Position numbers and translations under genes: made by a program | In this document: piece by piece, positions 31,678-40,039 of the stretch | Position numbering within the stretch: position 1 is the first letter of the stretch | How the letters are laid out: every line of letters begins with the position of its first letter | Source of the DNA: a virus | Taxonomy: Duplodnaviria > Heunggongvirae > Uroviricota > Caudoviricetes | Strand: one strand, 5' to 3' | IMG/VR virus record: IMGVR_UViG_3300046474_000237 | Location: 71,469-117,159 of that record | DNA: 45,691 bases | Notes under the pieces: generated by a model | Told to the model about the DNA's origin: nothing | Databases searched by the model: none | Seen by the model: the letters and a program-made list of their open reading frames with translations, nothing else

Positions 31678-33288
31678 TTAAAAATCAAATACGTTGTTCT
31701 CTTTAATCTCGTCCACCGTTGTGAACTCACCCTTAAGAACCATATACGCTATATTAGCGAAAACTACACTGTGGAACCAATCATCACACAAGTCTTCATC
31801 TTTTTTATACAGACGACGCCCAGTCACGGATTCTTCTTCGAAAATGTTCAATGCGTCCTGCCAGAATTCAGACATCAGGTTCCAACAAGGAGTCTCGATA
31901 CGATCACGGCCAATCTTAGCCTTCAATACAATCGTGTCCATGTTCGTTGTTCGATCTGCTGAAAAGAACTGTCCTTCTCTGTCCCAACGAAGCGTAGACT
32001 TTGCTGCTACATATTGTACAGAATTTACTTTATCCTGGCCAATACTTTTTCTAAGCAATTCTACTTGTAACTGGCCAACACCACGGTCTGAAGCAAGCAT
32101 TGTACATTTGTATTTTGCGTATAGTTCTTCAACACGCTTAACCTGATCAAGAATATCAATACCATTCAGGCGCTGGGCGTAAATAAGATATCCCTTACCA
32201 TTCCAGTCGTAACCCATGATTGTAATAACGGTGTATGAATTAGAACCACCACTTACTGACCAGTCTACTCCAAGCACAGTATGGAGAATATTACGTTCAT
32301 CCATTGGGAAACCCTTATCCCACTCTGTCTTGTTATTGTTACAACATGCCATTACTTCTTTAAGTGATAGTGGACGACCAGCTAGACCGCTAGGGCATCC
32401 AAACACTTCGTTAGCAAGCTTAGGCACTGAATAAGTCTTGGCCTTATGAAGTAGATCCTTCCACTTCTTAGGTCTCGTACGTGCAGGGAAAATAAGCTGA
32501 GGTAAATGAAACCCGTAATGGTCTTTCTCAGCAGGTTTTGCTGCCACCCATTTACCAGTGGACATATCGAGCAGACCTCCGCAGTACACACAGCCTGGAC
32601 CTTCTTTATTGGCATGCAGAATCGTATGGCAAATATCGAAATCAAGGGGTAGCGTGTACTTATTGCAATGCGTACATCTAACCGCCCACTCCATCATGTT
32701 CGATTGCTTGAACTTCTGTGTGAGTGAATTAGTCTCTGTTTTAGCCGTGCCTGTGTATCGTCTGAATGCAAAGTCTGAAGCACCCAACGTTTCTGCAAGA
32801 ATAGGGGCACATTCAAGACTGGTATCTTGGAACTCATCTAGGTACAGAGCGTCAGCGAAGACTCCACGAATACGGTCGGCGTCTTGTTCTGTTTCTGCGT
32901 AACCCAATGTTACAGCACTGCCATTAGTAAATGACTTTGAGAATACGTTCTTACGTGAGCCCGCATCAACGAAGTGCTTACGGATAAGAGGGGAACTTAA
33001 GAAGGGATCTAAATATGCTGTTGAGAATCGTGATGTCTGTTGAGACAATGGGCTACTGAACAGAGTCGAAAAGTGAGGGCGAACTAGACTGTTGGCTACA
33101 ATAGCTGCGCCAAGAGATACTGATTTGCCAATCTGCCGACCTGCCATCAAAGTCATTTCATTAGGAGAAACGTCATAGATGATTTCAAACGGCTTGTAAT
33201 CTTCGAGATTGAGAGGCTTACCTTTAAGAGTGAGCAGAGCTTTGGAAATCTCGGAGGGCTTTAGTTTTAAAAGGCTTTCTTTGTCCAT
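31678..33288 (-). CDS. terL: terminase large subunit (lambda GpA-like)
   Basis: Walker A AGRQIGKS, Walker B LYLDEFQD, CTHC/CVYC Zn motif, nuclease LGVDWS and C-terminal DDWFHS. Confidence 0.9.
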   Translation of the reverse strand: MDKESLLKLKPSEISKALLTLKGKPLNLEDYKPFEIIYDVSPNEMTLMAGRQIGKSVSLGAAIVANSLVRPHFSTLFSSPLSQQTSRFSTAYLDPFLSSPLIRKHFVDAGSRKNVFSKSFTNGSAVTLGYAETEQDADRIRGVFADALYLDEFQDTSLECAPILAETLGASDFAFRRYTGTAKTETNSLTQKFKQSNMMEWAVRCTHCNKYTLPLDFDICHTILHANKEGPGCVYCGGLLDMSTGKWVAAKPAEKDHYGFHLPQLIFPARTRPKKWKDLLHKAKTYSVPKLANEVFGCPSGLAGRPLSLKEVMACCNNNKTEWDKGFPMDERNILHTVLGVDWSVSGGSNSYTVITIMGYDWNGKGYLIYAQRLNGIDILDQVKRVEELYAKYKCTMLASDRGVGQLQVELLRKSIGQDKVNSVQYVAAKSTLRWDREGQFFSADRTTNMDTIVLKAKIGRDRIETPCWNLMSEFWQDALNIFEEESVTGRRLYKKDEDLCDDWFHSVVFANIAYMVLKGEFTTVDEIKENNVFDF

Positions 33289-34072: not shown

Positions 34073-34083
34073 TTTGGTATAAC
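34073..34083 (+). promoter_or_regulatory. promoter motif TTTGGTATAAC (weaker second copy GAGGTATAAC at 34002-34011)
   Basis: Matches the recurring motif and lies 74 nt upstream of the Ubl gene. Confidence 0.6.
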
Positions 34084-34156: not shown

Positions 34157-34579
34157 ATGGCTGCAACCGTAACCAAGACTATCGTTACCATCGCTTCGAC
34201 CGACACCGAGTACCAAATTCCGGGCGATTACACGCCTGCTTCGATCCAACGCAACTACGCTAACGATATTCCTAATATCGGCAGCATGCAGTTCGAAGAA
34301 CGTGTCGTGACGCAAGACGGTGAAACGGTTCGTGAGATCACCTTCAAGCCCCGTACGGGCACCAAGGGTGCTGGCGTAACGAAGACCATCGTGACCATCG
34401 CTTCGACGGACACGGAGTACCAAATCCCGGGTGACTATACCCCGGCATCGATCCAACGCAATTATGCGAACGACATTCCGAACATCGGTTCGATGCAGTT
34501 CGAAGAGCGTGTTGTGACGCAAGACGGCGAGACCGTCCGTGAAATCACCTTCAAGCCGCGTACCGGCACGAAGGGTTAA
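34157..34579 (+). CDS. tandem di-ubiquitin-like precursor (PRTRC protein C-like, two units ending ...KPRTGTKG)
   Basis: 71-aa and 69-aa units, identical over 67 aa. Predicted beta-beta-alpha-beta-beta pattern. The C-terminal GTKG is the hallmark of PRTRC protein C. Clustered with E2, JAB and E1. Confidence 0.8.
   Translation: MAATVTKTIVTIASTDTEYQIPGDYTPASIQRNYANDIPNIGSMQFEERVVTQDGETVREITFKPRTGTKGAGVTKTIVTIASTDTEYQIPGDYTPASIQRNYANDIPNIGSMQFEERVVTQDGETVREITFKPRTGTKG
34169..34576 (+). repeat. tandem duplication within the Ubl gene (34169-34369 vs 34376-34576)
   Basis: Codon-by-codon comparison: 67 identical amino acids, about 30 synonymous codon differences. Confidence 0.95.
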
Positions 34580-34616: not shown

Positions 34617-34670
34617 ACGAGCAGCAGGGTTCACTCCTAGCCACGCTGCTCGTTTTTCCTGTTTTTTTTA
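34617..34670 (+). terminator. terminator after the Ubl gene
   Basis: ACGAGCAGC...GCTGCTCGT 9-bp stem followed by TTTTCCTGTTTTTTTT. Confidence 0.7.
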
Positions 34671-34719: not shown

Positions 34720-35625
34720 ATGCAAACTTTTAAAGTACCTCGCTCAGAATCTGATTTGCCTCGGCAACTTCAGAAGATGAGACTAGAAGCAGAAGAGAAG
34801 CTCAGAGTATTCTGTACAAAGAAGATCCTGGATCATAAGCTCTCCACTAAAACGTTTAATTATCAGTTCGACATCTCTGGTGCAAGAGCTGGCGGTCAAC
34901 GTAAGTCTGTTCAAAAGCTTAAAGATATTCTGTACAAAGCAGTAAAGAAACAAGTTCCTTATATTGAGTATATTGCCGGTGGCGATATCATTATCAATAG
35001 TACTTCTTCAAATGCCGTTGCTTTAAAAATCGTATCTCCGTATATGACTTTTGATGTAGAACCTTGGGATTCGATAAGTACTTTGAGCGAAAGAATGCAC
35101 TGGGTAAGGTCGATGCGCAGATACACTAAGTATTTGAACTTTAAGTGTATGAGAGGTGGTATTCCTTTGAACTTAGAGCGTATTCGATTTACCCATGAAA
35201 CTCATCCTGAAGATATGAATGCGTTTCATGCATGGAATCAAACCCAGGCTAGTCCATGTAAAGTGCGGATGCGAATCACTCTTACGGCCAAGCTTTCGAT
35301 AAGAGGATATTTTTACGACGAGTATGTAAGAGTTATAACTAACAATCTTGTTGATGGCATCAATACATACGAAGACTACGAAAACTATCTTATTGAATAT
35401 AAGCATAACGAGAGATTGGCCTCATTAAGAGACGTTAGAAATTGGGAAACTTTCGATATCACGTCTCGTCGGGTACCTACGTTTTATCCTGGGGTTGAGA
35501 AATACGTGTCTGCTGAGAAAATCTTCCTGATACTGGAAGAACTTCAACAGGTTATTAAAACACTTTCCAGAAAAGTTAGCTATGATACTGCAGCGTTTAA
35601 TATCGGAAGCAGCGAAGCTTCCTGA
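34720..35625 (+). CDS. hypothetical protein within the Ubl cluster
   Basis: 301-aa ORF with SD-like AAGGA. No motif recognised. Confidence 0.7.
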   Translation: MQTFKVPRSESDLPRQLQKMRLEAEEKLRVFCTKKILDHKLSTKTFNYQFDISGARAGGQRKSVQKLKDILYKAVKKQVPYIEYIAGGDIIINSTSSNAVALKIVSPYMTFDVEPWDSISTLSERMHWVRSMRRYTKYLNFKCMRGGIPLNLERIRFTHETHPEDMNAFHAWNQTQASPCKVRMRITLTAKLSIRGYFYDEYVRVITNNLVDGINTYEDYENYLIEYKHNERLASLRDVRNWETFDITSRRVPTFYPGVEKYVSAEKIFLILEELQQVIKTLSRKVSYDTAAFNIGSSEAS

Positions 35626-35836
35626 TCTGTCACAAGAAGTAAAAAGTGTCCAGGAGAAGTTTAAAACTATCGGTGAAGAACTGGGTCACAAGGAACTCGA
35701 ACTTCTAATGATCGTAACTTGTAAGACGTTTGCATGTGAAAACAATAGCAGACGCAGAGTGGATCTTAAGAACATCGAAGCAAACATCGTAAAAGCCAAG
35801 CATGCGGCTGTTGAGGAAGAAGAGGATTTCGTATGA
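35582..35836 (+). CDS. small helical hypothetical protein
   Basis: 84 aa with an acidic EEEEDF tail. Stop overlaps the E2 start (ATGA). Confidence 0.6.
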   Translation: MILQRLISEAAKLPDLSQEVKSVQEKFKTIGEELGHKELELLMIVTCKTFACENNSRRRVDLKNIEANIVKAKHAAVEEEEDFV

Positions 35837-36588
35837 GCGATATTACTATTGAAACGGCTAGCGTTGACGTTAGTGCTGTAGCAGAGGAAAACCTCGTTGA
35901 TACCAAGGGTCAGCACATCATCCTTCTGGAAGATTGCGTGGCAGTAGTAATTGGTGATGACACCAGCAGTATTGAGAAGCGAATCACGTATGAAGATTTC
36001 GGTAACATCATCAGTGCTGTGCTGAATCGTCGTAATGAAGAATCGCTTGAAGGTTTCCAACTTCCTGCAAACTGTTTCTTCTTTGCAAAGTCTGGTACAT
36101 CGATTCAGCTCAGTTGTTATTATGCAGAACGTGTCGCTGAGATGCAGCATCTTGACAGAAAGTATACGGTCAAGACTCCGAATATCATCATCAGCCATAA
36201 GTTAGAAAAGCATAATAACAAGCAATGGAGAACGGTTGGATCACGATTCTTCTGTACGGATAAGAGATCAGGTGCTTTGTCGAAGGGTTTGATCTGGGAT
36301 CAGAATCCGACTAATCGTGTATATCTGTCTCCGTTTCCGAACACATACGCAGAAGGTCATATGTGCTATGGCGGAAACTCGATGCCTTCACATTTCCAAG
36401 ACAACAATCTGCAAGGCTTGAATTGGTATTATCAGTTCCTGTTTGAATCTCCGTTTAACAATGACTTGGGTTTGCGCTCGTTAAAAGAAGAGGTTGTTGC
36501 ACAAGATTGGTTCAAGACTCTTGAAACAGCAGCTAAGAACAACGAGCCGTTCCCGTATGAAAAACTCCGTGGTTATACGAAACCCTAA
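35833..36588 (+). CDS. prokaryotic E2-like conjugating protein (Prok-E2 family D / PRTRC protein B-like)
   Basis: TPNII...VYLSPFPNTYAEGHMCYGGN...FLFESPFNNDL, matching LY.APF.N.Y..G.ICWG...F..S.FN.DL. Candidate catalytic Cys in HMCYG. Confidence 0.8.
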   Translation: MSDITIETASVDVSAVAEENLVDTKGQHIILLEDCVAVVIGDDTSSIEKRITYEDFGNIISAVLNRRNEESLEGFQLPANCFFFAKSGTSIQLSCYYAERVAEMQHLDRKYTVKTPNIIISHKLEKHNNKQWRTVGSRFFCTDKRSGALSKGLIWDQNPTNRVYLSPFPNTYAEGHMCYGGNSMPSHFQDNNLQGLNWYYQFLFESPFNNDLGLRSLKEEVVAQDWFKTLETAAKNNEPFPYEKLRGYTKP

Positions 36589-36602: not shown

Positions 36603-37934
36603 TTGAAAATGGAAATCATCAGCCAACACATCAGCTGCGTAGTTCTTCCCAACGAGCTTCAAACTGCAATTGAAGCTGGTTATAGCGAAATCTACGCTAT
36701 GACGAGTGAGGGTATTGTCAAGCATCACAAGCTTCGTGGTCGTAATCGTTTCGTTCGTCTTAAGGTTGACAAGCTTCCGGCTAACTACAAGGAAGAAAAG
36801 GTTTCTCAAGAAATCAACTTCCTGCCTGATGGCAAGATTCCGATTCAGTTGTTCGATCAAGTCGTGGCATTCTTCAAGCAAGTCATGGAAGTGAAGAAGT
36901 CCGAGCTTGAAGCAATGATTTGGGTTTGTTGGGATCAAGAAAGTGGTTATCATCTGATTGTCCCTGAACAACGTGTGTCAAAGGCTTCGGCTTCGTATGA
37001 CTGGGCTTCGTTGCCTGCTGGTAAGACTATCGTCTGTGATATTCATAGTCACAATACGATGGGTGCATTCTTCAGCGGTACAGACAACCGTGATGACCAA
37101 GGCAATATCGGATTCTCCGGTGTTGTTGGCCGTCTGAAGGATGAAACTCCGCAGACAGTGTGGCGCTTTAACTACAAGGATAAGAAAATCGAATGTGAAT
37201 TCGATGACATCTTTGTTCTCCCGGTTCGTGAAGAGCAAGCAATTCCTGAAGATTGGATTTCCAAGATCGTGACTACGAGCACTGGGTATTCGACGGGAGG
37301 GAACAACCAAAAGGGAAAAGCGGATCATCTCAAACCCTGGCAGTACAAAAGGGGAGAAAACACAAGCGAAGGAAATCGGGCAGGTCCACATATGCTGGCT
37401 CACGATAGGGGGTTACTTCCCGATGGTTATGGGAACTATTGGGAGGAGCGTTTCGGATCCGAGGCAGCTAACCTTTCCGGAGGTGGAGGATTTCCTTGGG
37501 AGTCCTGGGCCTTCAACCCCGACGATGTAGATGCTGATGGAATCATTGATCCTTCGAAGCTTACTCTGGACAAAGCAGAACGTGCTTTGGCAGTGCTCCG
37601 TGAAGATCCGGGGTATGAGGATTCACATCTAGACTACAGTCCCCGTGTTCACCCGTATAATCCTGACTTCGATCCTGACGTTAACACCACGTTTGACTGT
37701 GATGAGCGGTATGAAGAAGTCAAGGAAGAACACGGTAAAGACGTTGCTGACATCTTCTGTTTGATCGATGATGGGATGTCTGTTCTGAATGGCAAAGATG
37801 ATCTCGTTCGTAACCTGATGAGCGACATGATTCACATGATGTCCGAAGAAGGTCAAGAGGAATTGTTCAGAGACTTGTATCAGGAACTTCCTGACAAGGC
37901 TCAAGAACGAATCCAGATGAACGGTATTCACTAA
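36603..37934 (+). CDS. JAB/MPN metallopeptidase (PRTRC protein A-like) with a long acidic C-terminal extension
   Basis: ELEAMIW (Glu) ... DIHSHNTMGAFFSGTDNRDD (HxH-x7-S-x2-D). Confidence 0.9.
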   Translation: MKMEIISQHISCVVLPNELQTAIEAGYSEIYAMTSEGIVKHHKLRGRNRFVRLKVDKLPANYKEEKVSQEINFLPDGKIPIQLFDQVVAFFKQVMEVKKSELEAMIWVCWDQESGYHLIVPEQRVSKASASYDWASLPAGKTIVCDIHSHNTMGAFFSGTDNRDDQGNIGFSGVVGRLKDETPQTVWRFNYKDKKIECEFDDIFVLPVREEQAIPEDWISKIVTTSTGYSTGGNNQKGKADHLKPWQYKRGENTSEGNRAGPHMLAHDRGLLPDGYGNYWEERFGSEAANLSGGGGFPWESWAFNPDDVDADGIIDPSKLTLDKAERALAVLREDPGYEDSHLDYSPRVHPYNPDFDPDVNTTFDCDERYEEVKEEHGKDVADIFCLIDDGMSVLNGKDDLVRNLMSDMIHMMSEEGQEELFRDLYQELPDKAQERIQMNGIH

Positions 37935-38486: not shown

Positions 38487-38696
38487 ATGATTTGCGTATA
38501 CTGCAAAGAAGATAAAGAGACAAGACCATACGGTCCTAACTTTTCAGCAATCTGTTTCAGATGTATGATGGCTACGCCTGAACGAGAGGCTGAAGCTTCC
38601 AAGAATTATCTTGCTCAACTCGATGCTTGTGGCGGTGTAGCCATCATCGGAGAAGAGACTGGACCTCGTCCTTTAAATACCGATTCTTTGGTATAA
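38487..38696 (+). CDS. small Zn-ribbon protein
   Basis: CVYC-x16-CFRC in a 69-aa ORF, with AAGGA upstream. Confidence 0.6.
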   Translation: MICVYCKEDKETRPYGPNFSAICFRCMMATPEREAEASKNYLAQLDACGGVAIIGEETGPRPLNTDSLV

Positions 38697-38773: not shown

Positions 38774-40039
38774 ATGTTTACTTTCCGTCCTTCCTCGATT
38801 CCCTCGAACATTTTCGTAGTTGGCTGTGGAGGAACTGGTTCACGACTCGTACCGGCATTGATTCAGTTCATTCGTTCAATCACGAAAGAACACGTGCCCT
38901 CTGGCTGGCTTGGAACTACGAACATCGTCCTGGTTGACGGTGACGTAGTGGAACAGAAGAATCTGATTCGTCAGAACTTCGTTCAGAGCGATGTGGGTAA
39001 GAACAAGGCCTTGGTTCTGGCAAATCGGTATGGTAAGGCGTATGGGATGAATGTTGTTCCGTACATGAAGTACATCGAAGAAGGTACGAATCCGCAGAAC
39101 TTCCGTAGTCTTCTAAATGAAGCCACTGGTCTTAATTTGACCAATAACTACAACGACATGGTAATCATGTGCGTTGATAGTGCCAAGGCTCGTCGTATTG
39201 TTATTCAGGCACTGCAGGGCGTATACGGGGAGAATACTGTATTTATCGATGCTGGTAACGAAGATAGTTTCGGTCAGGTTCGCATGTTCCACAATGCAGT
39301 TCTTGTGGACCATAGGTTCCAGAATGAAGAGGTGGCTCGTAAAAAATACAAAAATCCGGAACGCATTGAGTTTGTACCTGAGCCTTTGAATTTCATTCCG
39401 TTCGATTTTCATTTTTATCGTGATTTGGAAGATAACCCTGGACTCGGTAGTTGCGCAGATCTAGATCAGACGTTGGCTATCAATTCTTTGATGGCAATGT
39501 ACATTCTGTCTTTTGTTCAGAACCATTACTATAACAAGGTTATCGACTACAACGCAGTATCAATCGATATCGTTAAAGGCTCTACAGCCTATACGAAAAA
39601 CACTGTTGTAGAGTATCGTAATAAAATGATTCACAGCGGTACCACCATTCGAAGTATTGGAGTAGATGACGGAATGCTCCTTCATGTGCAGCAGAGCGCT
39701 GGAGATGATGATTTACTAGGTCAGTTCCTTCATCAAAATACTGAAGCTGTTAATGCTCTCCTCGCTGCTCAAACTGTCGGTGCCCCGGTAGTTGAAGAAG
39801 TTAAGGCAGCAGCTCCGAAGAAGAAAACGAAGGTGAAGGAACTACGTCCAGTGATTCAAGTTGAGCCGATGAATGTAGAGATTTCCACGATTACATTCAA
39901 CGCTGAACCGTTGGTCGGTGAAGCAAGTGGTCCTGCGTTGGTTGACTTTGAAGCTGAAGCTAACAACGACACGTTTGCACTTCCTGAATCAGTACCTCCT
40001 GCGACGGGTAGCGTCTGGGACAATGTAGATCAATTCTAA
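38774..40039 (+). CDS. ThiF/E1-like Ubl-activating enzyme (PRTRC ThiF-like)
   Basis: IFVVGCGGTGS, LVDGDVVEQKNLIRQNF, GKNKA, CVDSAKAR and DAGNE. Candidate catalytic Cys in LGSCADLDQTLAIN. No CxxC Zn pairs. Confidence 0.9.
   Translation: MFTFRPSSIPSNIFVVGCGGTGSRLVPALIQFIRSITKEHVPSGWLGTTNIVLVDGDVVEQKNLIRQNFVQSDVGKNKALVLANRYGKAYGMNVVPYMKYIEEGTNPQNFRSLLNEATGLNLTNNYNDMVIMCVDSAKARRIVIQALQGVYGENTVFIDAGNEDSFGQVRMFHNAVLVDHRFQNEEVARKKYKNPERIEFVPEPLNFIPFDFHFYRDLEDNPGLGSCADLDQTLAINSLMAMYILSFVQNHYYNKVIDYNAVSIDIVKGSTAYTKNTVVEYRNKMIHSGTTIRSIGVDDGMLLHVQQSAGDDDLLGQFLHQNTEAVNALLAAQTVGAPVVEEVKAAAPKKKTKVKELRPVIQVEPMNVEISTITFNAEPLVGEASGPALVDFEAEANNDTFALPESVPPATGSVWDNVDQF

What the first reader, a model, noticed from the sequence alone, without database searches (positions are those of the whole stretch)
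34157..34579. Polyubiquitin-like gene: head-to-tail di-Ubl with identical protein but saturated synonymous divergence
Seen: unit 1 (34157-34369) and unit 2 (34370-34576) are identical over 67 aa, yet about 30 of those codons differ, all synonymously, including an AGC/TCG Ser switch. So the duplication is old and both copies are under strong purifying selection. The junction ...RTGTKG|AGVTK... puts a cleavable Gly at the end of unit 1. Inference: it is a linear precursor processed by the JAB peptidase into two monomers, like eukaryotic polyubiquitin genes. Alternatively it acts as an uncleaved dimer.
Basis: partly seen in the sequence, partly recalled or inferred. Interest (0 to 1): 0.9.

Follow-up and report, generated by a model that had tools for sequence, protein, structure and literature searches.

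The report
Phage polyubiquitin-like two-unit Ubl gene
A soil phage carries a gene made of two head-to-tail copies of a small ubiquitin-like protein, identical in protein but scrambled in codons, and relatives with one to five copies show it is most likely a cut-apart precursor built like eukaryotic polyubiquitin genes.

Summary
ORF 34157-34579 (140 aa) holds two units that are identical over 67 aa. Thirty-one codons differ synonymously, which is the number expected for independent codon choice.

Each unit is a small beta-grasp (Prok_Ub-like) domain ending FKPRTGTKG. The gene opens a Ubl-E2-JAB-E1 cassette that stays syntenic next to the terminase gene in about 30 metagenomic phage loci.

Relatives carry 1, 2, 3, 4 or 5 units. 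Every unit ends GxKG. Many last units carry a one-residue or short cap after the Gly, as eukaryotic polyubiquitin does. The residue after G71 is Ala in all 19 two-unit proteins aligned. A related bacterial JAB peptidase (BilC) is known to cut a linear Ubl fusion at Gly|Ala.

The precursor reading is therefore well supported by comparison, but cleavage itself is untested.

Purifying selection is extreme: sister strains with E1/E2 only 71% identical have a 100% identical Ubl, with 20-22 differences, all synonymous.

"One old duplication" is too simple. Units group by gene, not by position, so they were re-homogenised or re-duplicated within lineages. One Ser/Thr change is mirrored in both units with unit-specific third bases.

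This is a new variant of a known kind, and I found no paper describing it.

The parts
34074..34082 (+). TTGGTATAA promoter-like motif, 75 nt upstream of the Ubl start codon
   Evidence: The motif occurs 6 times in the window, all on the + strand, against 0.35 expected. One copy also precedes the E1 gene, at 38688. Promoter function is inferred, not tested.
34157..34579 (+). Two-unit Ubl gene (140 aa plus stop), proposed polyubiquitin-like precursor
   Evidence: The AF2 model has two beta-beta-alpha-beta-beta units at mean pLDDT 79.6. The top Foldseek PDB hits are linear di- and tetra-ubiquitin and ISG15. Relatives match Prok_Ub PF14454. GC3 is 0.66, against 0.28-0.51 for all other ORFs of 150 aa or more.
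34157..34369 (+). Unit 1 (M1-G71), ending FKPRTGTKG
   Evidence: The tail residues F63 and P65-G71 are invariant in 19 two-unit proteins.
34370..34576 (+). Unit 2 (A72-G140), ending FKPRTGTKG directly before the stop codon
   Evidence: The tail residues F132 and P134-G140 are invariant.
34367..34372 (+). Proposed cleavage site G71|A72 (GGT|GCT)
   Evidence: G71 and A72 are invariant in A1. The model has pLDDT below 50 for residues 69-72, consistent with a flexible linker. Ala is the commonest residue after internal unit ends in the wider family, 33 of 60. BilC, a JAB peptidase, cuts Ubl-GFP between Gly97 and Ala98 (PMC10557695). Cleavage here is inferred.
34617..34670 (+). Terminator-like hairpin (34617-34653) followed by a T-rich run
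   Evidence: RNA fold gives -31.5 kcal/mol with z = -3.9 against shuffles. The simple consensus scan did not list it, because its loop limit is 3-8 nt.
34720..35625 (+). Conserved 301-aa protein of unknown family between the Ubl and E2 genes
   Evidence: It is syntenic in relatives at 22-54% identity. It has no Pfam, NCBIfam, PHROG or PADLOC match.
35582..35836 (+). Conserved 84-aa protein overlapping both neighbouring genes
   Evidence: It is syntenic in L003-L007 and L016 at 47-65% identity.
35833..36588 (+). E2-like protein (Prok-E2_D)
   Evidence: PF14460 matches at E = 1.2e-8. PRTRC_B scores below its cut-off. C178 is invariant in 14 homologues.
36603..37934 (+). JAB/JAMM peptidase with an N-terminal JAB-N region and a long C-terminal extension; proposed processing enzyme
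   Evidence: PF14464 matches at E = 6.7e-10 and PRTRC_A at E = 1.2e-21, the latter below its cut-off. E103, H148, H150, S158 and D161 are invariant in 11 homologues.
38487..38696 (+). Small CxxC...CxxC protein (69 aa) between the JAB and E1 genes
   Evidence: Sequence. It is conserved at 54-59% identity in L003-L007 and L016. Zinc binding is inferred from the cysteine pattern only.
38774..40039 (+). E1-like adenylating enzyme (ThiF family)
   Evidence: PF00899 matches at E = 1e-14 and PRTRC_ThiF at E = 6.7e-26, the latter below its cut-off. The GxGGxG motif (G17-G22), D135 and C227 are invariant in 11 homologues.
31678..33288 (-). Large terminase subunit, transcribed divergently; the conserved left-hand neighbour of the cassette
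   Evidence: phrog_675 matches at E = 2e-56. It lies next to the Ubl gene in about 30 loci.

Best explanation
The gene encodes a linear precursor of two copies of one ubiquitin-like modifier of the Prok_Ub type, a four-stranded beta-grasp with a flexible ...RTGTKG tail.

Proposed steps, in order:
1. The gene is transcribed as its own unit, with a promoter-like motif, a strongly biased codon set and a terminator.
2. The cassette's JAB/JAMM peptidase cuts after G71, between Gly and Ala. Together with removal of Met1, this yields two nearly identical modifiers of about 69-70 aa, each with a free C-terminal Gly.
3. The ThiF-type E1 adenylates that Gly.
4. The Cys of the Prok-E2_D protein takes the modifier over.
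5. It is attached to still unknown phage or host targets.

Two units per message double the yield of a protein needed in large amounts. Relatives use one to five units in the same way.

Because every unit becomes the same free modifier, every unit is under the same very strong purifying selection. Synonymous sites drift to saturation. Now and then the units are homogenised or re-duplicated, as is debated for eukaryotic polyubiquitin genes.

Shown here: the repeat, the fold, the family, the synteny, the intact catalytic residues, the variation in unit number, the caps and the selection pattern. Inferred: the cleavage, the conjugation and the high expression.
For: The repeat itself:
- 67 aa are identical and 31 codons differ synonymously, which matches the random expectation.

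Fold and family:
- The AF2 model shows two beta-grasp-like units with disordered tails at residues 66-72 and 134-140.
- The best PDB matches are linear di- and tetra-ubiquitin.
- 20 of 40 family units hit Prok_Ub PF14454, best E = 2e-5.

Cassette:
- The gene is followed by E2, JAB and E1 with invariant C178; E103, H148, H150, S158 and D161; and GxGGxG with C227.
- The same order, beside terL, is found in about 30 loci.
- It is also found behind five-unit and four-unit genes in other phage-like contigs.

Unit number and caps:
- Syntenic relatives have one unit ending exactly at ...GTKG-stop.
- A profile search of 1.84 billion representatives gave 128 hits. A pattern count on 131 of the proteins held found the [GA][TSAV]KG unit end in 86: 54 with one, 16 with two, 8 with three, 4 with four and 4 with five units. 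Most of the other 45 end GNKG.
- 28 of those 86 carry extra residues after the last Gly (N, I, A, K, C, V, L, or short tails), which must be removed before adenylation.

Cleavage site:
- The full tail and the following Ala are invariant in unit 1 of all 19 two-unit proteins.
- In P0004, unit 1 without Met is letter-for-letter unit 2.
- Precedent: the JAB peptidase BilC cuts a linear Ubl-GFP fusion between Gly97 and Ala98 (PMC10557695).

Selection:
- The Ubl is 100% identical in strains whose JAB is 86%, E1/E2 71% and terL 94% identical. The 20-22 differences are all synonymous.

Expression hints:
- Ubl GC3 exceeds the median GC3 of ORFs of 150 aa or more in 16 of 17 loci.
- Contigs of three RNA libraries lie within the ORF.
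Against: No experiment or proteomic datum shows cleavage at G71|A72.

Two-domain Ubls that stay uncleaved do exist (ISG15, type I BilA; PMC11601603).

The window's own unit does not reach any curated HMM cut-off (PRTRC_C 15 bits against 46).

The window gene has no cap after G140, so a peptidase is not strictly required for unit 2.

Targets are unknown.

The RNA evidence comes from contigs of runs that were picked with this gene, so it cannot rank expression.
Confidence: 0.7

Rival explanations
1. The protein works uncleaved, as a two-domain modifier like ISG15 or type I BilA. Only G140 is activated, and unit 1 rides along as a second binding module.
For: Two beta-grasp domains lie in one chain, and ISG15 is among the Foldseek hits. 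Uncleaved bacterial Ubls with 2-3 beta-grasp domains are documented (PMC11601603). The stop codon follows G140 directly, so no processing is needed for activation.
Against: In known two- and three-domain Ubls the domains differ from each other and only the last carries the Gly tail. Here unit 1 keeps the complete invariant FKPRTGTKG tail plus Ala in all 19 proteins. Unit 1 is under the same constraint as unit 2: per-site entropy is 1.06 for both, and there are no amino-acid changes across strains. Close syntenic relatives manage with a single unit. Relatives have up to five units, some separated by acidic spacers, and capped ends that demand a peptidase. The model shows no packing between the units (pTM 0.48, junction pLDDT below 50).
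Confidence: 0.2
2. The two units are kept protein-identical by selection acting on each unit separately (parallel substitutions). Their codons are kept or driven apart because identical DNA repeats would be lost by recombination. This would be natural codon scrambling rather than passive drift after rare homogenisation.
For: The only core amino-acid change within the window's clade is mirrored. The window and L003 have Thr (ACG or ACA in unit 1, ACC in unit 2). L012 has Ser (TCG in unit 1, TCC in unit 2). The unit-specific third bases and the flanking synonymous states are retained in both. All 12 two-unit genes with DNA show same-codon counts at the random level (428 observed, 429 expected), as do the identical units 2 and 4 of a five-unit gene. 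pS between the units (0.64-0.69) exceeds pS between unit 1 and the single-unit relatives L015 and L016 (0.43-0.44), although both units share later-derived residues.
Against: There is only one mirrored substitution. The differences are not spaced more evenly than chance: the longest identical in-register run is 14 nt against a simulated median of 20, P = 0.12, and there is no trend across 11 genes. The excess of changes in unit 2 sits mostly in codons 28-41 of the 66-codon unit table, where unit 1 is almost identical to L015 and L016; that could be a recombination patch. Outside that block the asymmetry is not significant. L043 has identical units with pS of only 0.33, as expected from ordinary, slowly decaying homogenisation.
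Confidence: 0.2
3. The repeat is a structural tandem domain or a sulfur-carrier (ThiS/MoaD-like) protein, with no role as a protein modifier.
For: ThiF-type E1 enzymes also serve sulfur carriers (weak hits to ThiF and MoeB models). The gene sits among morphogenesis genes.
Against: An E2-like protein with an invariant Cys and a JAMM peptidase always accompany it. The hits are to Prok_Ub and PRTRC_C, not to ThiS or MoaD. No family scan of the cassette proteins returned a sulfurtransferase domain or a structural family.
Confidence: 0.05

Closest known systems
Eukaryotic polyubiquitin genes (UBI4/UBB/UBC type)
   Same: Both have head-to-tail units with no spacer and identical protein units with heavily diverged synonymous sites. 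Every unit ends in the Gly that is later activated. In relatives of the window gene, an extra residue or short tail follows the last unit. The same question arises for both: concerted evolution, or birth-and-death with purifying selection (PMC10457151).
   Different: There is no sequence similarity to ubiquitin. The unit is a 62-70 aa four-stranded beta-grasp with a GxKG tail instead of LRGG. The proposed processing enzyme is a JAMM metallopeptidase of the same cassette rather than a Cys DUB. The gene is encoded by phages. The protein is not universally conserved: orthologues differ by up to 55% while the units within one gene stay near-identical.
Operon type 6d of Iyer, Burroughs & Aravind 2006 (Ub-like protein + JAB with JAB-N + E1-like + E2-like + extra protein), i.e. 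PRTRC cassettes and Pfam Prok_Ub / Prok-E2_D / Prok-JAB
   Same: It has the same four components and the same Pfam families. The Ubl is small with a conserved C-terminal Gly, and the JAB has an N-terminal extra domain (PMC1779556).
   Different: All four NCBIfam PRTRC models score below their curated cut-offs. No ParB-like gene is found in the 117-kb virus record. The cassette is a fixed part of a phage lineage, next to terL. The Ubl is multiplied head to tail, whereas 6d was described with a single Ubl.
Bil systems (BilA Ubl, BilB E2, BilC JAB DUB, BilD E1)
   Same: It has the Ubl-E2-JAB-E1 set. The JAB peptidase pre-processes the Ubl by cutting a linear bond after the conserved Gly, before Ala (PMC10557695).
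   Different: Bil is a bacterial anti-phage defence, and its two- or three-domain Ubls are single modifiers with unlike domains (PMC11601603). Here the system is phage-borne and the units are identical. PADLOC gave no match except generic E1 similarity.
Prokaryotic polyUbl of operon type 6e / Bub Ubl2-Ubl3 proteins
   Same: They have two to three tandem beta-grasp domains in one protein next to E1-, E2- and JAB-like genes, noted in 2006 as 'reminiscent of poly-ubiquitin' (PMC1779556).
   Different: Those domains differ from each other and lack internal Gly tails, and Ubl3 proteins act as folded multi-domain units that form dimers and filaments (PMC11601603). No Multi_ubiq-type Pfam hit was found here.

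Membership tests
Prok_Ub (PF14454) / PRTRC_C (TIGR03738) | Match to the family HMM above the curated cut-off | tested here: inconclusive
   Window protein: no Pfam hit; PRTRC_C E = 0.019, 15.1 bits against a cut-off of 45.95. Relatives: 20 of 40 units match PF14454 at E <= 1, best 2.1e-5. Precomputed PF14454 hits are recorded on many homologues.
Prok_Ub (PF14454) / PRTRC_C (TIGR03738) | Small beta-grasp fold with a conserved C-terminal Gly | tested here: met
   The AF2 model has beta-beta-alpha-beta-beta units at pLDDT about 80. Foldseek matches di-ubiquitin and ISG15. The terminal Gly is invariant in 40 units.
Prok_Ub (PF14454) / PRTRC_C (TIGR03738) | Gene neighbourhood with Prok-E2_D, Prok-JAB and ThiF | tested here: met
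PRTRC system (NCBIfam) | Components A, B, C and ThiF above curated cut-offs | tested here: not met
   Scores against cut-offs: A 77.1 vs 101.8; B 29.3 vs 131.45; ThiF 91.1 vs 144.75; C 15.1 vs 45.95.
PRTRC system (NCBIfam) | ParB-related partner gene | tested here: not met
   No PF02195 match in the 117-kb virus record, which is estimated 88% complete.
Polyubiquitin-type precursor (by mode of action, not by homology) | Head-to-tail identical units, each ending in the activatable Gly tail | tested here: met
   Relatives have up to 5 units.
Polyubiquitin-type precursor (by mode of action, not by homology) | Extra residue(s) after the last unit | tested here: inconclusive
   Absent in the window gene, where the stop follows G140. 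Present in 28 of 86 motif-bearing relatives: N, I, A, K, C, V, L or short tails.
Polyubiquitin-type precursor (by mode of action, not by homology) | Proteolytic release of monomers | not testable with these tools
   Only precedent (BilC cuts at Gly|Ala) and comparative inference are available.
Polyubiquitin-type precursor (by mode of action, not by homology) | Sequence homology to ubiquitin | tested here: not met
   No ubiquitin-family Pfam hit. A profile search against PDB sequences found nothing relevant. The likeness is in fold only, at 7-15% identity.
ISG15 / type I BilA-like uncleaved two-domain Ubl | Two unlike beta-grasp domains, with only the last carrying the Gly tail | tested here: not met
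   The domains are identical over 67 aa, and both carry the invariant tail.
Known anti-phage defence systems (PADLOC 2.0.0) | Match of the cassette proteins to defence-system models | tested here: not met
   Only weak generic E1-E2 model hits for the ThiF domain (best E = 1.3e-6). There was nothing for the Ubl, the 301-aa protein, E2 or JAB. The library dates from 2023 and may lack Bil models.

The most novel reading that the evidence does not exclude
These phages have independently arrived at the polyubiquitin gene design: one to five identical units, and cap residues removed by a dedicated JAMM peptidase. In addition, the array is kept protein-identical by selection on each unit separately (parallel substitutions, such as the mirrored Ser/Thr change), while the codons stay scrambled. 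Scrambled codons would protect the tandem array from recombinational collapse in a recombination-proficient phage genome.
Probability: 0.2. Interest if true: 0.85.

Novelty: new variant of a known kind. Interest (0 to 1): 0.74.

Why it matters
Head-to-tail precursor genes that are cut into many identical modifiers are a hallmark of eukaryotic ubiquitin. Prokaryotic "polyUbl" proteins described so far are multi-domain proteins with unlike domains.

This is a phage lineage in which a Ubl-E2-JAB-E1 cassette is a fixed genome module next to the terminase gene. Its Ubl gene comes in 1-5 identical units with caps. That would be a clean, independent example of the polyubiquitin design.

It offers a simple test bed for precursor processing by a JAMM peptidase: four small genes and a 15-kDa substrate. 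It also raises the question of what a phage modifies in such quantity.

The family is also a compact natural data set for the old dispute over concerted evolution versus birth-and-death in ubiquitin repeats. Here the protein does diverge between lineages, so purifying selection alone cannot explain the identity of the units.

Tried and rejected
- **Complex prediction**, JAB residues 1-225 with the two-unit Ubl: score 0.19, below the mark of 0.32, so no verdict. It is used neither for nor against.
- **Isolate-phage records**: blastn and tblastn found no match. PHROGs has no family for the Ubl, E2, JAB or E1. The lineage is known only from metagenomes.
- **Profile search against PDB sequences**: only noise.
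- **Consensus terminator and promoter scan**: nothing useful on the + strand. The hairpin was found by folding instead.
- **Are the unit differences spaced to minimise identical runs?** No. The longest in-register run is 14 nt against a simulated median of 20 (P = 0.12), with no trend over 11 genes.
- **Relative-rate excess of synonymous changes in unit 2** (15-16 against 4-6): rejected as firm evidence. It is concentrated in codons 28-41 of the unit table, where unit 1 is nearly identical to the single-unit genes of L015 and L016. That is possibly a recombination patch, and outside it the excess is not significant.
- **"All homologues have two units"**: an artefact of the length filter of that search. 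Single-unit genes are the majority.
- **Expression**: no RNA holder was listed for the 3.3-kb stretch. Three RNA libraries hold short contigs inside the Ubl ORF only. These runs were chosen with that gene and are contigs, so uncovered flanks say nothing and depth cannot rank genes.
- **Literature searches** for PRTRC, Prok_Ub and poly-Ubl in phages found no paper describing this architecture.

Full report
**1. The observation**

The window holds an ORF at 34157..34579 (+) of 140 aa. Self-comparison gives one sharp peak at an offset of 69 residues, with 68 of 69 identical. The only mismatch, T4/G73, lies in the N-terminal linker.

At the codon level, 37 codons are identical, 31 differ synonymously (including Ser AGC/TCG) and 1 differs non-synonymously. 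If the two units drew their codons independently from the gene's own usage, 38-39 identical codons would be expected. The synonymous sites are therefore fully saturated. The junction reads ...FKPRTGTKG|AGVTK....

**2. What the unit is**

AlphaFold2 on an alignment of 19 two-unit homologues gives mean pLDDT 79.6. The model has two separate beta-beta-alpha-beta-beta units and disordered tails at 66-72 and 134-140. Foldseek against the PDB returns linear (Met1-linked) di- and tetra-ubiquitin first, then ISG15.

The window protein reaches no curated HMM cut-off on its own (PRTRC_C E = 0.019). However, 20 of 40 units of the family hit Pfam Prok_Ub (PF14454), best E = 2e-5. It is a diverged member of the small C-terminal-Gly Ubl that Iyer et al. 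described for their operon type 6d (PMC1779556).

**3. Surroundings**

Downstream, on the same strand, lie:
- a 301-aa and an 84-aa protein of unknown family;
- a Prok-E2_D protein;
- a Prok-JAB protein;
- a small CxxC...CxxC protein;
- a ThiF-type E1.

The catalytic residues are invariant among homologues. These are E2 C178; JAB E103, H148, H150, S158 and D161; and E1 GxGGxG, D135 and C227.

The NCBIfam PRTRC models all score below their cut-offs. No ParB-like gene is found in the 117-kb virus record. The cassette is therefore PRTRC-like, not a PRTRC system. PADLOC gives only generic E1 similarity.

The same gene order, always beside a divergently transcribed large terminase gene, recurs in about 30 metagenomic and viral loci. 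It is a fixed module of a phage lineage that is absent from isolate-phage records and from PHROGs. The phage occurs in more than 20 rhizosphere metagenomes.

**4. A stand-alone, strongly biased gene**

A motif TTGGTATAA lies 75 nt upstream of the start codon. It occurs six times in the window, all on the + strand, against 0.35 expected. A stable hairpin plus T-run follows the stop codon.

The gene's GC3 is 0.66, against 0.28-0.51 for all 34 ORFs of 150 aa or more in the window. The Ubl gene lies above its locus median in 16 of 17 loci. This fits translational selection on a very highly expressed gene, which is an inference.

Contigs from three RNA libraries of three studies lie inside the ORF at 88-97% identity, and one crosses the unit junction. 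This is only a weak hint, because the runs were found with this gene.

**5. Unit number in relatives**

This is the key result. My first protein search seemed to show only two-unit homologues, but that was the tool's length filter.

Loci fetched by pattern contain many single-unit genes of 62-70 aa that stop exactly after ...GTKG. They sit in the same cassette, including close relatives of the window phage: L006-L008 and L015, with terL 87-88% identical.

A profile search of 1.84 billion representatives found 128 relatives. I then counted unit ends with a simple pattern in 131 of the proteins held. In 86 of them the pattern was present: 54 had one unit, 16 two, 8 three, 4 four and 4 five. Most of the remaining 45 end GNKG.

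Every unit ends GxKG. Of those 86, 28 carry something after the last Gly. This is a single N, I, A, K, C, V or L, or a short tail. It parallels the extra residue that ends eukaryotic polyubiquitin precursors. Some have acidic spacers between units, and one (P0045) has a 134-aa domain fused behind the Ubl. Five- and four-unit genes (P0030, P0070) are again followed by E2, JAB and E1 genes in phage-like contigs.

**6. Why this points to a cut precursor**

- A capped Gly cannot be adenylated, so the family needs a peptidase that cuts linear bonds after that Gly.
- The cassette always supplies a JAMM peptidase.
- In all 19 two-unit proteins, unit 1 keeps the whole FKPRTGTKG tail, and the next residue is always Ala. 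In the wider family Ala is the commonest residue after internal unit ends, 33 of 60.
- In P0004, unit 1 without its Met is identical to unit 2 from first to last residue. Met removal plus one cut would give two indistinguishable molecules.
- Unit 1 shows no relaxation. Per-site variability is the same in both units, and neither changes among strains.
- In the related bacterial Bil system, the JAB peptidase BilC cuts a Ubl-GFP fusion exactly between Gly97 and Ala98 (PMC10557695).

By contrast, the known uncleaved two- and three-domain Ubls (ISG15, BilA, Bub Ubl3) have unlike domains and only one tail (PMC11601603).

Cleavage remains an inference. I put it at about 0.7. The structure-based complex test gave no verdict.

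**7. Selection and history**

Five sister assemblies (terL 94%, JAB 86%, E1 and E2 71%, tape-measure-like protein 81% identical) encode a 100% identical Ubl. Their 20-22 nucleotide differences are all at third positions. The Ubl is the most conserved protein of the region.

Yet more distant syntenic relatives differ by 13-55% in the Ubl. Across the family, both units of one gene are equally distant from both units of any other gene: pN is 0.07-0.26 between genes and 0.00-0.14 within. In a tree, units group by gene, never by position. Two-unit clades are nested within single-unit clades, and starred branches force at least four changes of state.

All 12 two-unit genes with DNA have same-codon counts at the random level (428 observed, 429 expected). 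So do the identical units 2 and 4 of the five-unit gene. The identical units 2 and 3 of P0070 are only part-way there (pS 0.33).

The simplest reading is the one still debated for ubiquitin (PMC10457151). It combines very strong purifying selection with rare homogenisation or re-duplication on a time scale of several synonymous substitutions per site. "One old duplication" is therefore not the whole story. Both window units share Tyr and Thr states (TAC/TAT and ACG/ACC) that are derived relative to Trp (TGG) and Gln (CAA) in the nearest single-unit relatives and in outgroups. The units were therefore last identical after that split.

**8. What stays unexplained**

Between the window/L003 and L012, the only core amino-acid change is mirrored. 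It is Thr ACG (ACA in L003) in unit 1 and ACC in unit 2, against Ser TCG in unit 1 and TCC in unit 2. The unit-specific third bases and the flanking synonymous states are kept. That looks like two parallel substitutions, not gene conversion.

In addition, pS between the units (0.64-0.69) exceeds pS between unit 1 and the single-unit genes of L015 and L016 (0.43-0.44; bootstrap P 0.015-0.03). The excess lies in unit 2. But it is concentrated in a 14-codon block (codons 28-41 of the unit table) where unit 1 is nearly identical to those relatives. That may be a recombination patch, and outside it the excess is not significant.

The differences between units are not spaced more evenly than chance. 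Selection for parallel change, or for codon divergence, is therefore a lead at about 0.2, not a finding.

**9. Comparison and novelty**

By mode of action the gene works like a polyubiquitin gene. By descent it belongs with Prok_Ub and operon type 6d. It is not homologous in sequence to ubiquitin. It is not a PRTRC system by the curated criteria. It is unlike the multi-domain polyUbl, BilA and Bub proteins.

I found no paper in the held library that describes phage-borne, head-to-tail, identical-unit Ubl precursors with caps. I rate it a new variant of a known kind, with interest about 0.74.

Noticed in passing
window 33311, 34074, 38688, 44746, 45191, 45594 (+): TTGGTATAA occurs six times, all on the + strand, against 0.35 expected. 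One copy lies 75 nt before the Ubl start and one 78 nt before the E1 start. It is a candidate phage promoter element for the plus-strand units.
   Followed up: partly
window 34157-34579 and loci L003, L006, L007, L014, L017, L021, L025, L037, L038 and others: The Ubl gene is a codon-usage outlier. Its GC3 lies above the median of ORFs of 150 aa or more in 16 of 17 loci (for example 0.66 against a median of 0.38 here), and in most of them above the highest other ORF.
   Followed up: partly
window 36603-37934 (JAB), residues about 200-443: The JAB protein carries a C-terminal extension of about 240 aa that is variable and partly acidic. It ends in a conserved segment (...QERIQ-x-NG-x; I388 and G441 are invariant). 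The function is unknown; it might recognise targets or the virion.
   Followed up: no
window 38487-38696: A 69-aa protein with two CxxC pairs (zinc-ribbon-like) is conserved between the JAB and E1 genes in close relatives. Iyer et al. suggested that small Zn-finger proteins in such operons may pick targets.
   Followed up: no
codons 28-41 of the 66-codon unit table: unit 1, residues N33-F46, window about 34253-34294: This 14-codon block of unit 1 differs at only 1-3 codons from the single-unit genes of L015 and L016, although the flanks are 13-30% diverged in protein. It looks like a mosaic recombination patch between phage lineages.
   Followed up: partly
P0045 (199 aa): One family member is a single Ubl unit fused to a 134-aa unrelated C-terminal domain directly after ...RTGTKG. 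This recalls ubiquitin-ribosomal-protein fusion genes.
   Followed up: no
L035:3299-4441: A GIY-YIG/NUMOD1 homing-endonuclease-like gene sits near the terminase gene in one relative, and terL there aligns over only 91% of its length. It may be a mobile insertion.
   Followed up: no
L022:4100-4552, L025:9926-10387, L014:9537-10361: In some relatives the JAB-like ORF is much shorter (151-275 aa), or 2 kb separates it from E1. The C-terminal extension may be split off or replaced.
   Followed up: no
A2 alignment: loop between strands 3 and 4, and the residue after the junction Ala: Where the two units of one protein differ, the differences recur at the same sites and in the same direction in several lineages. 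Unit 1 has N or D where unit 2 has E or D. The start reads 'MAI...' in unit 1 and 'G|AV...' in unit 2. Some pairs show A against P in 'MSAQQ/MSPQQ'. This means either old unit-specific states or position-specific selection.
   Followed up: partly
L040:15973-16861: The contig with the five-unit Ubl gene also carries a DNA polymerase III alpha gene with intein and LAGLIDADG hits.
   Followed up: no
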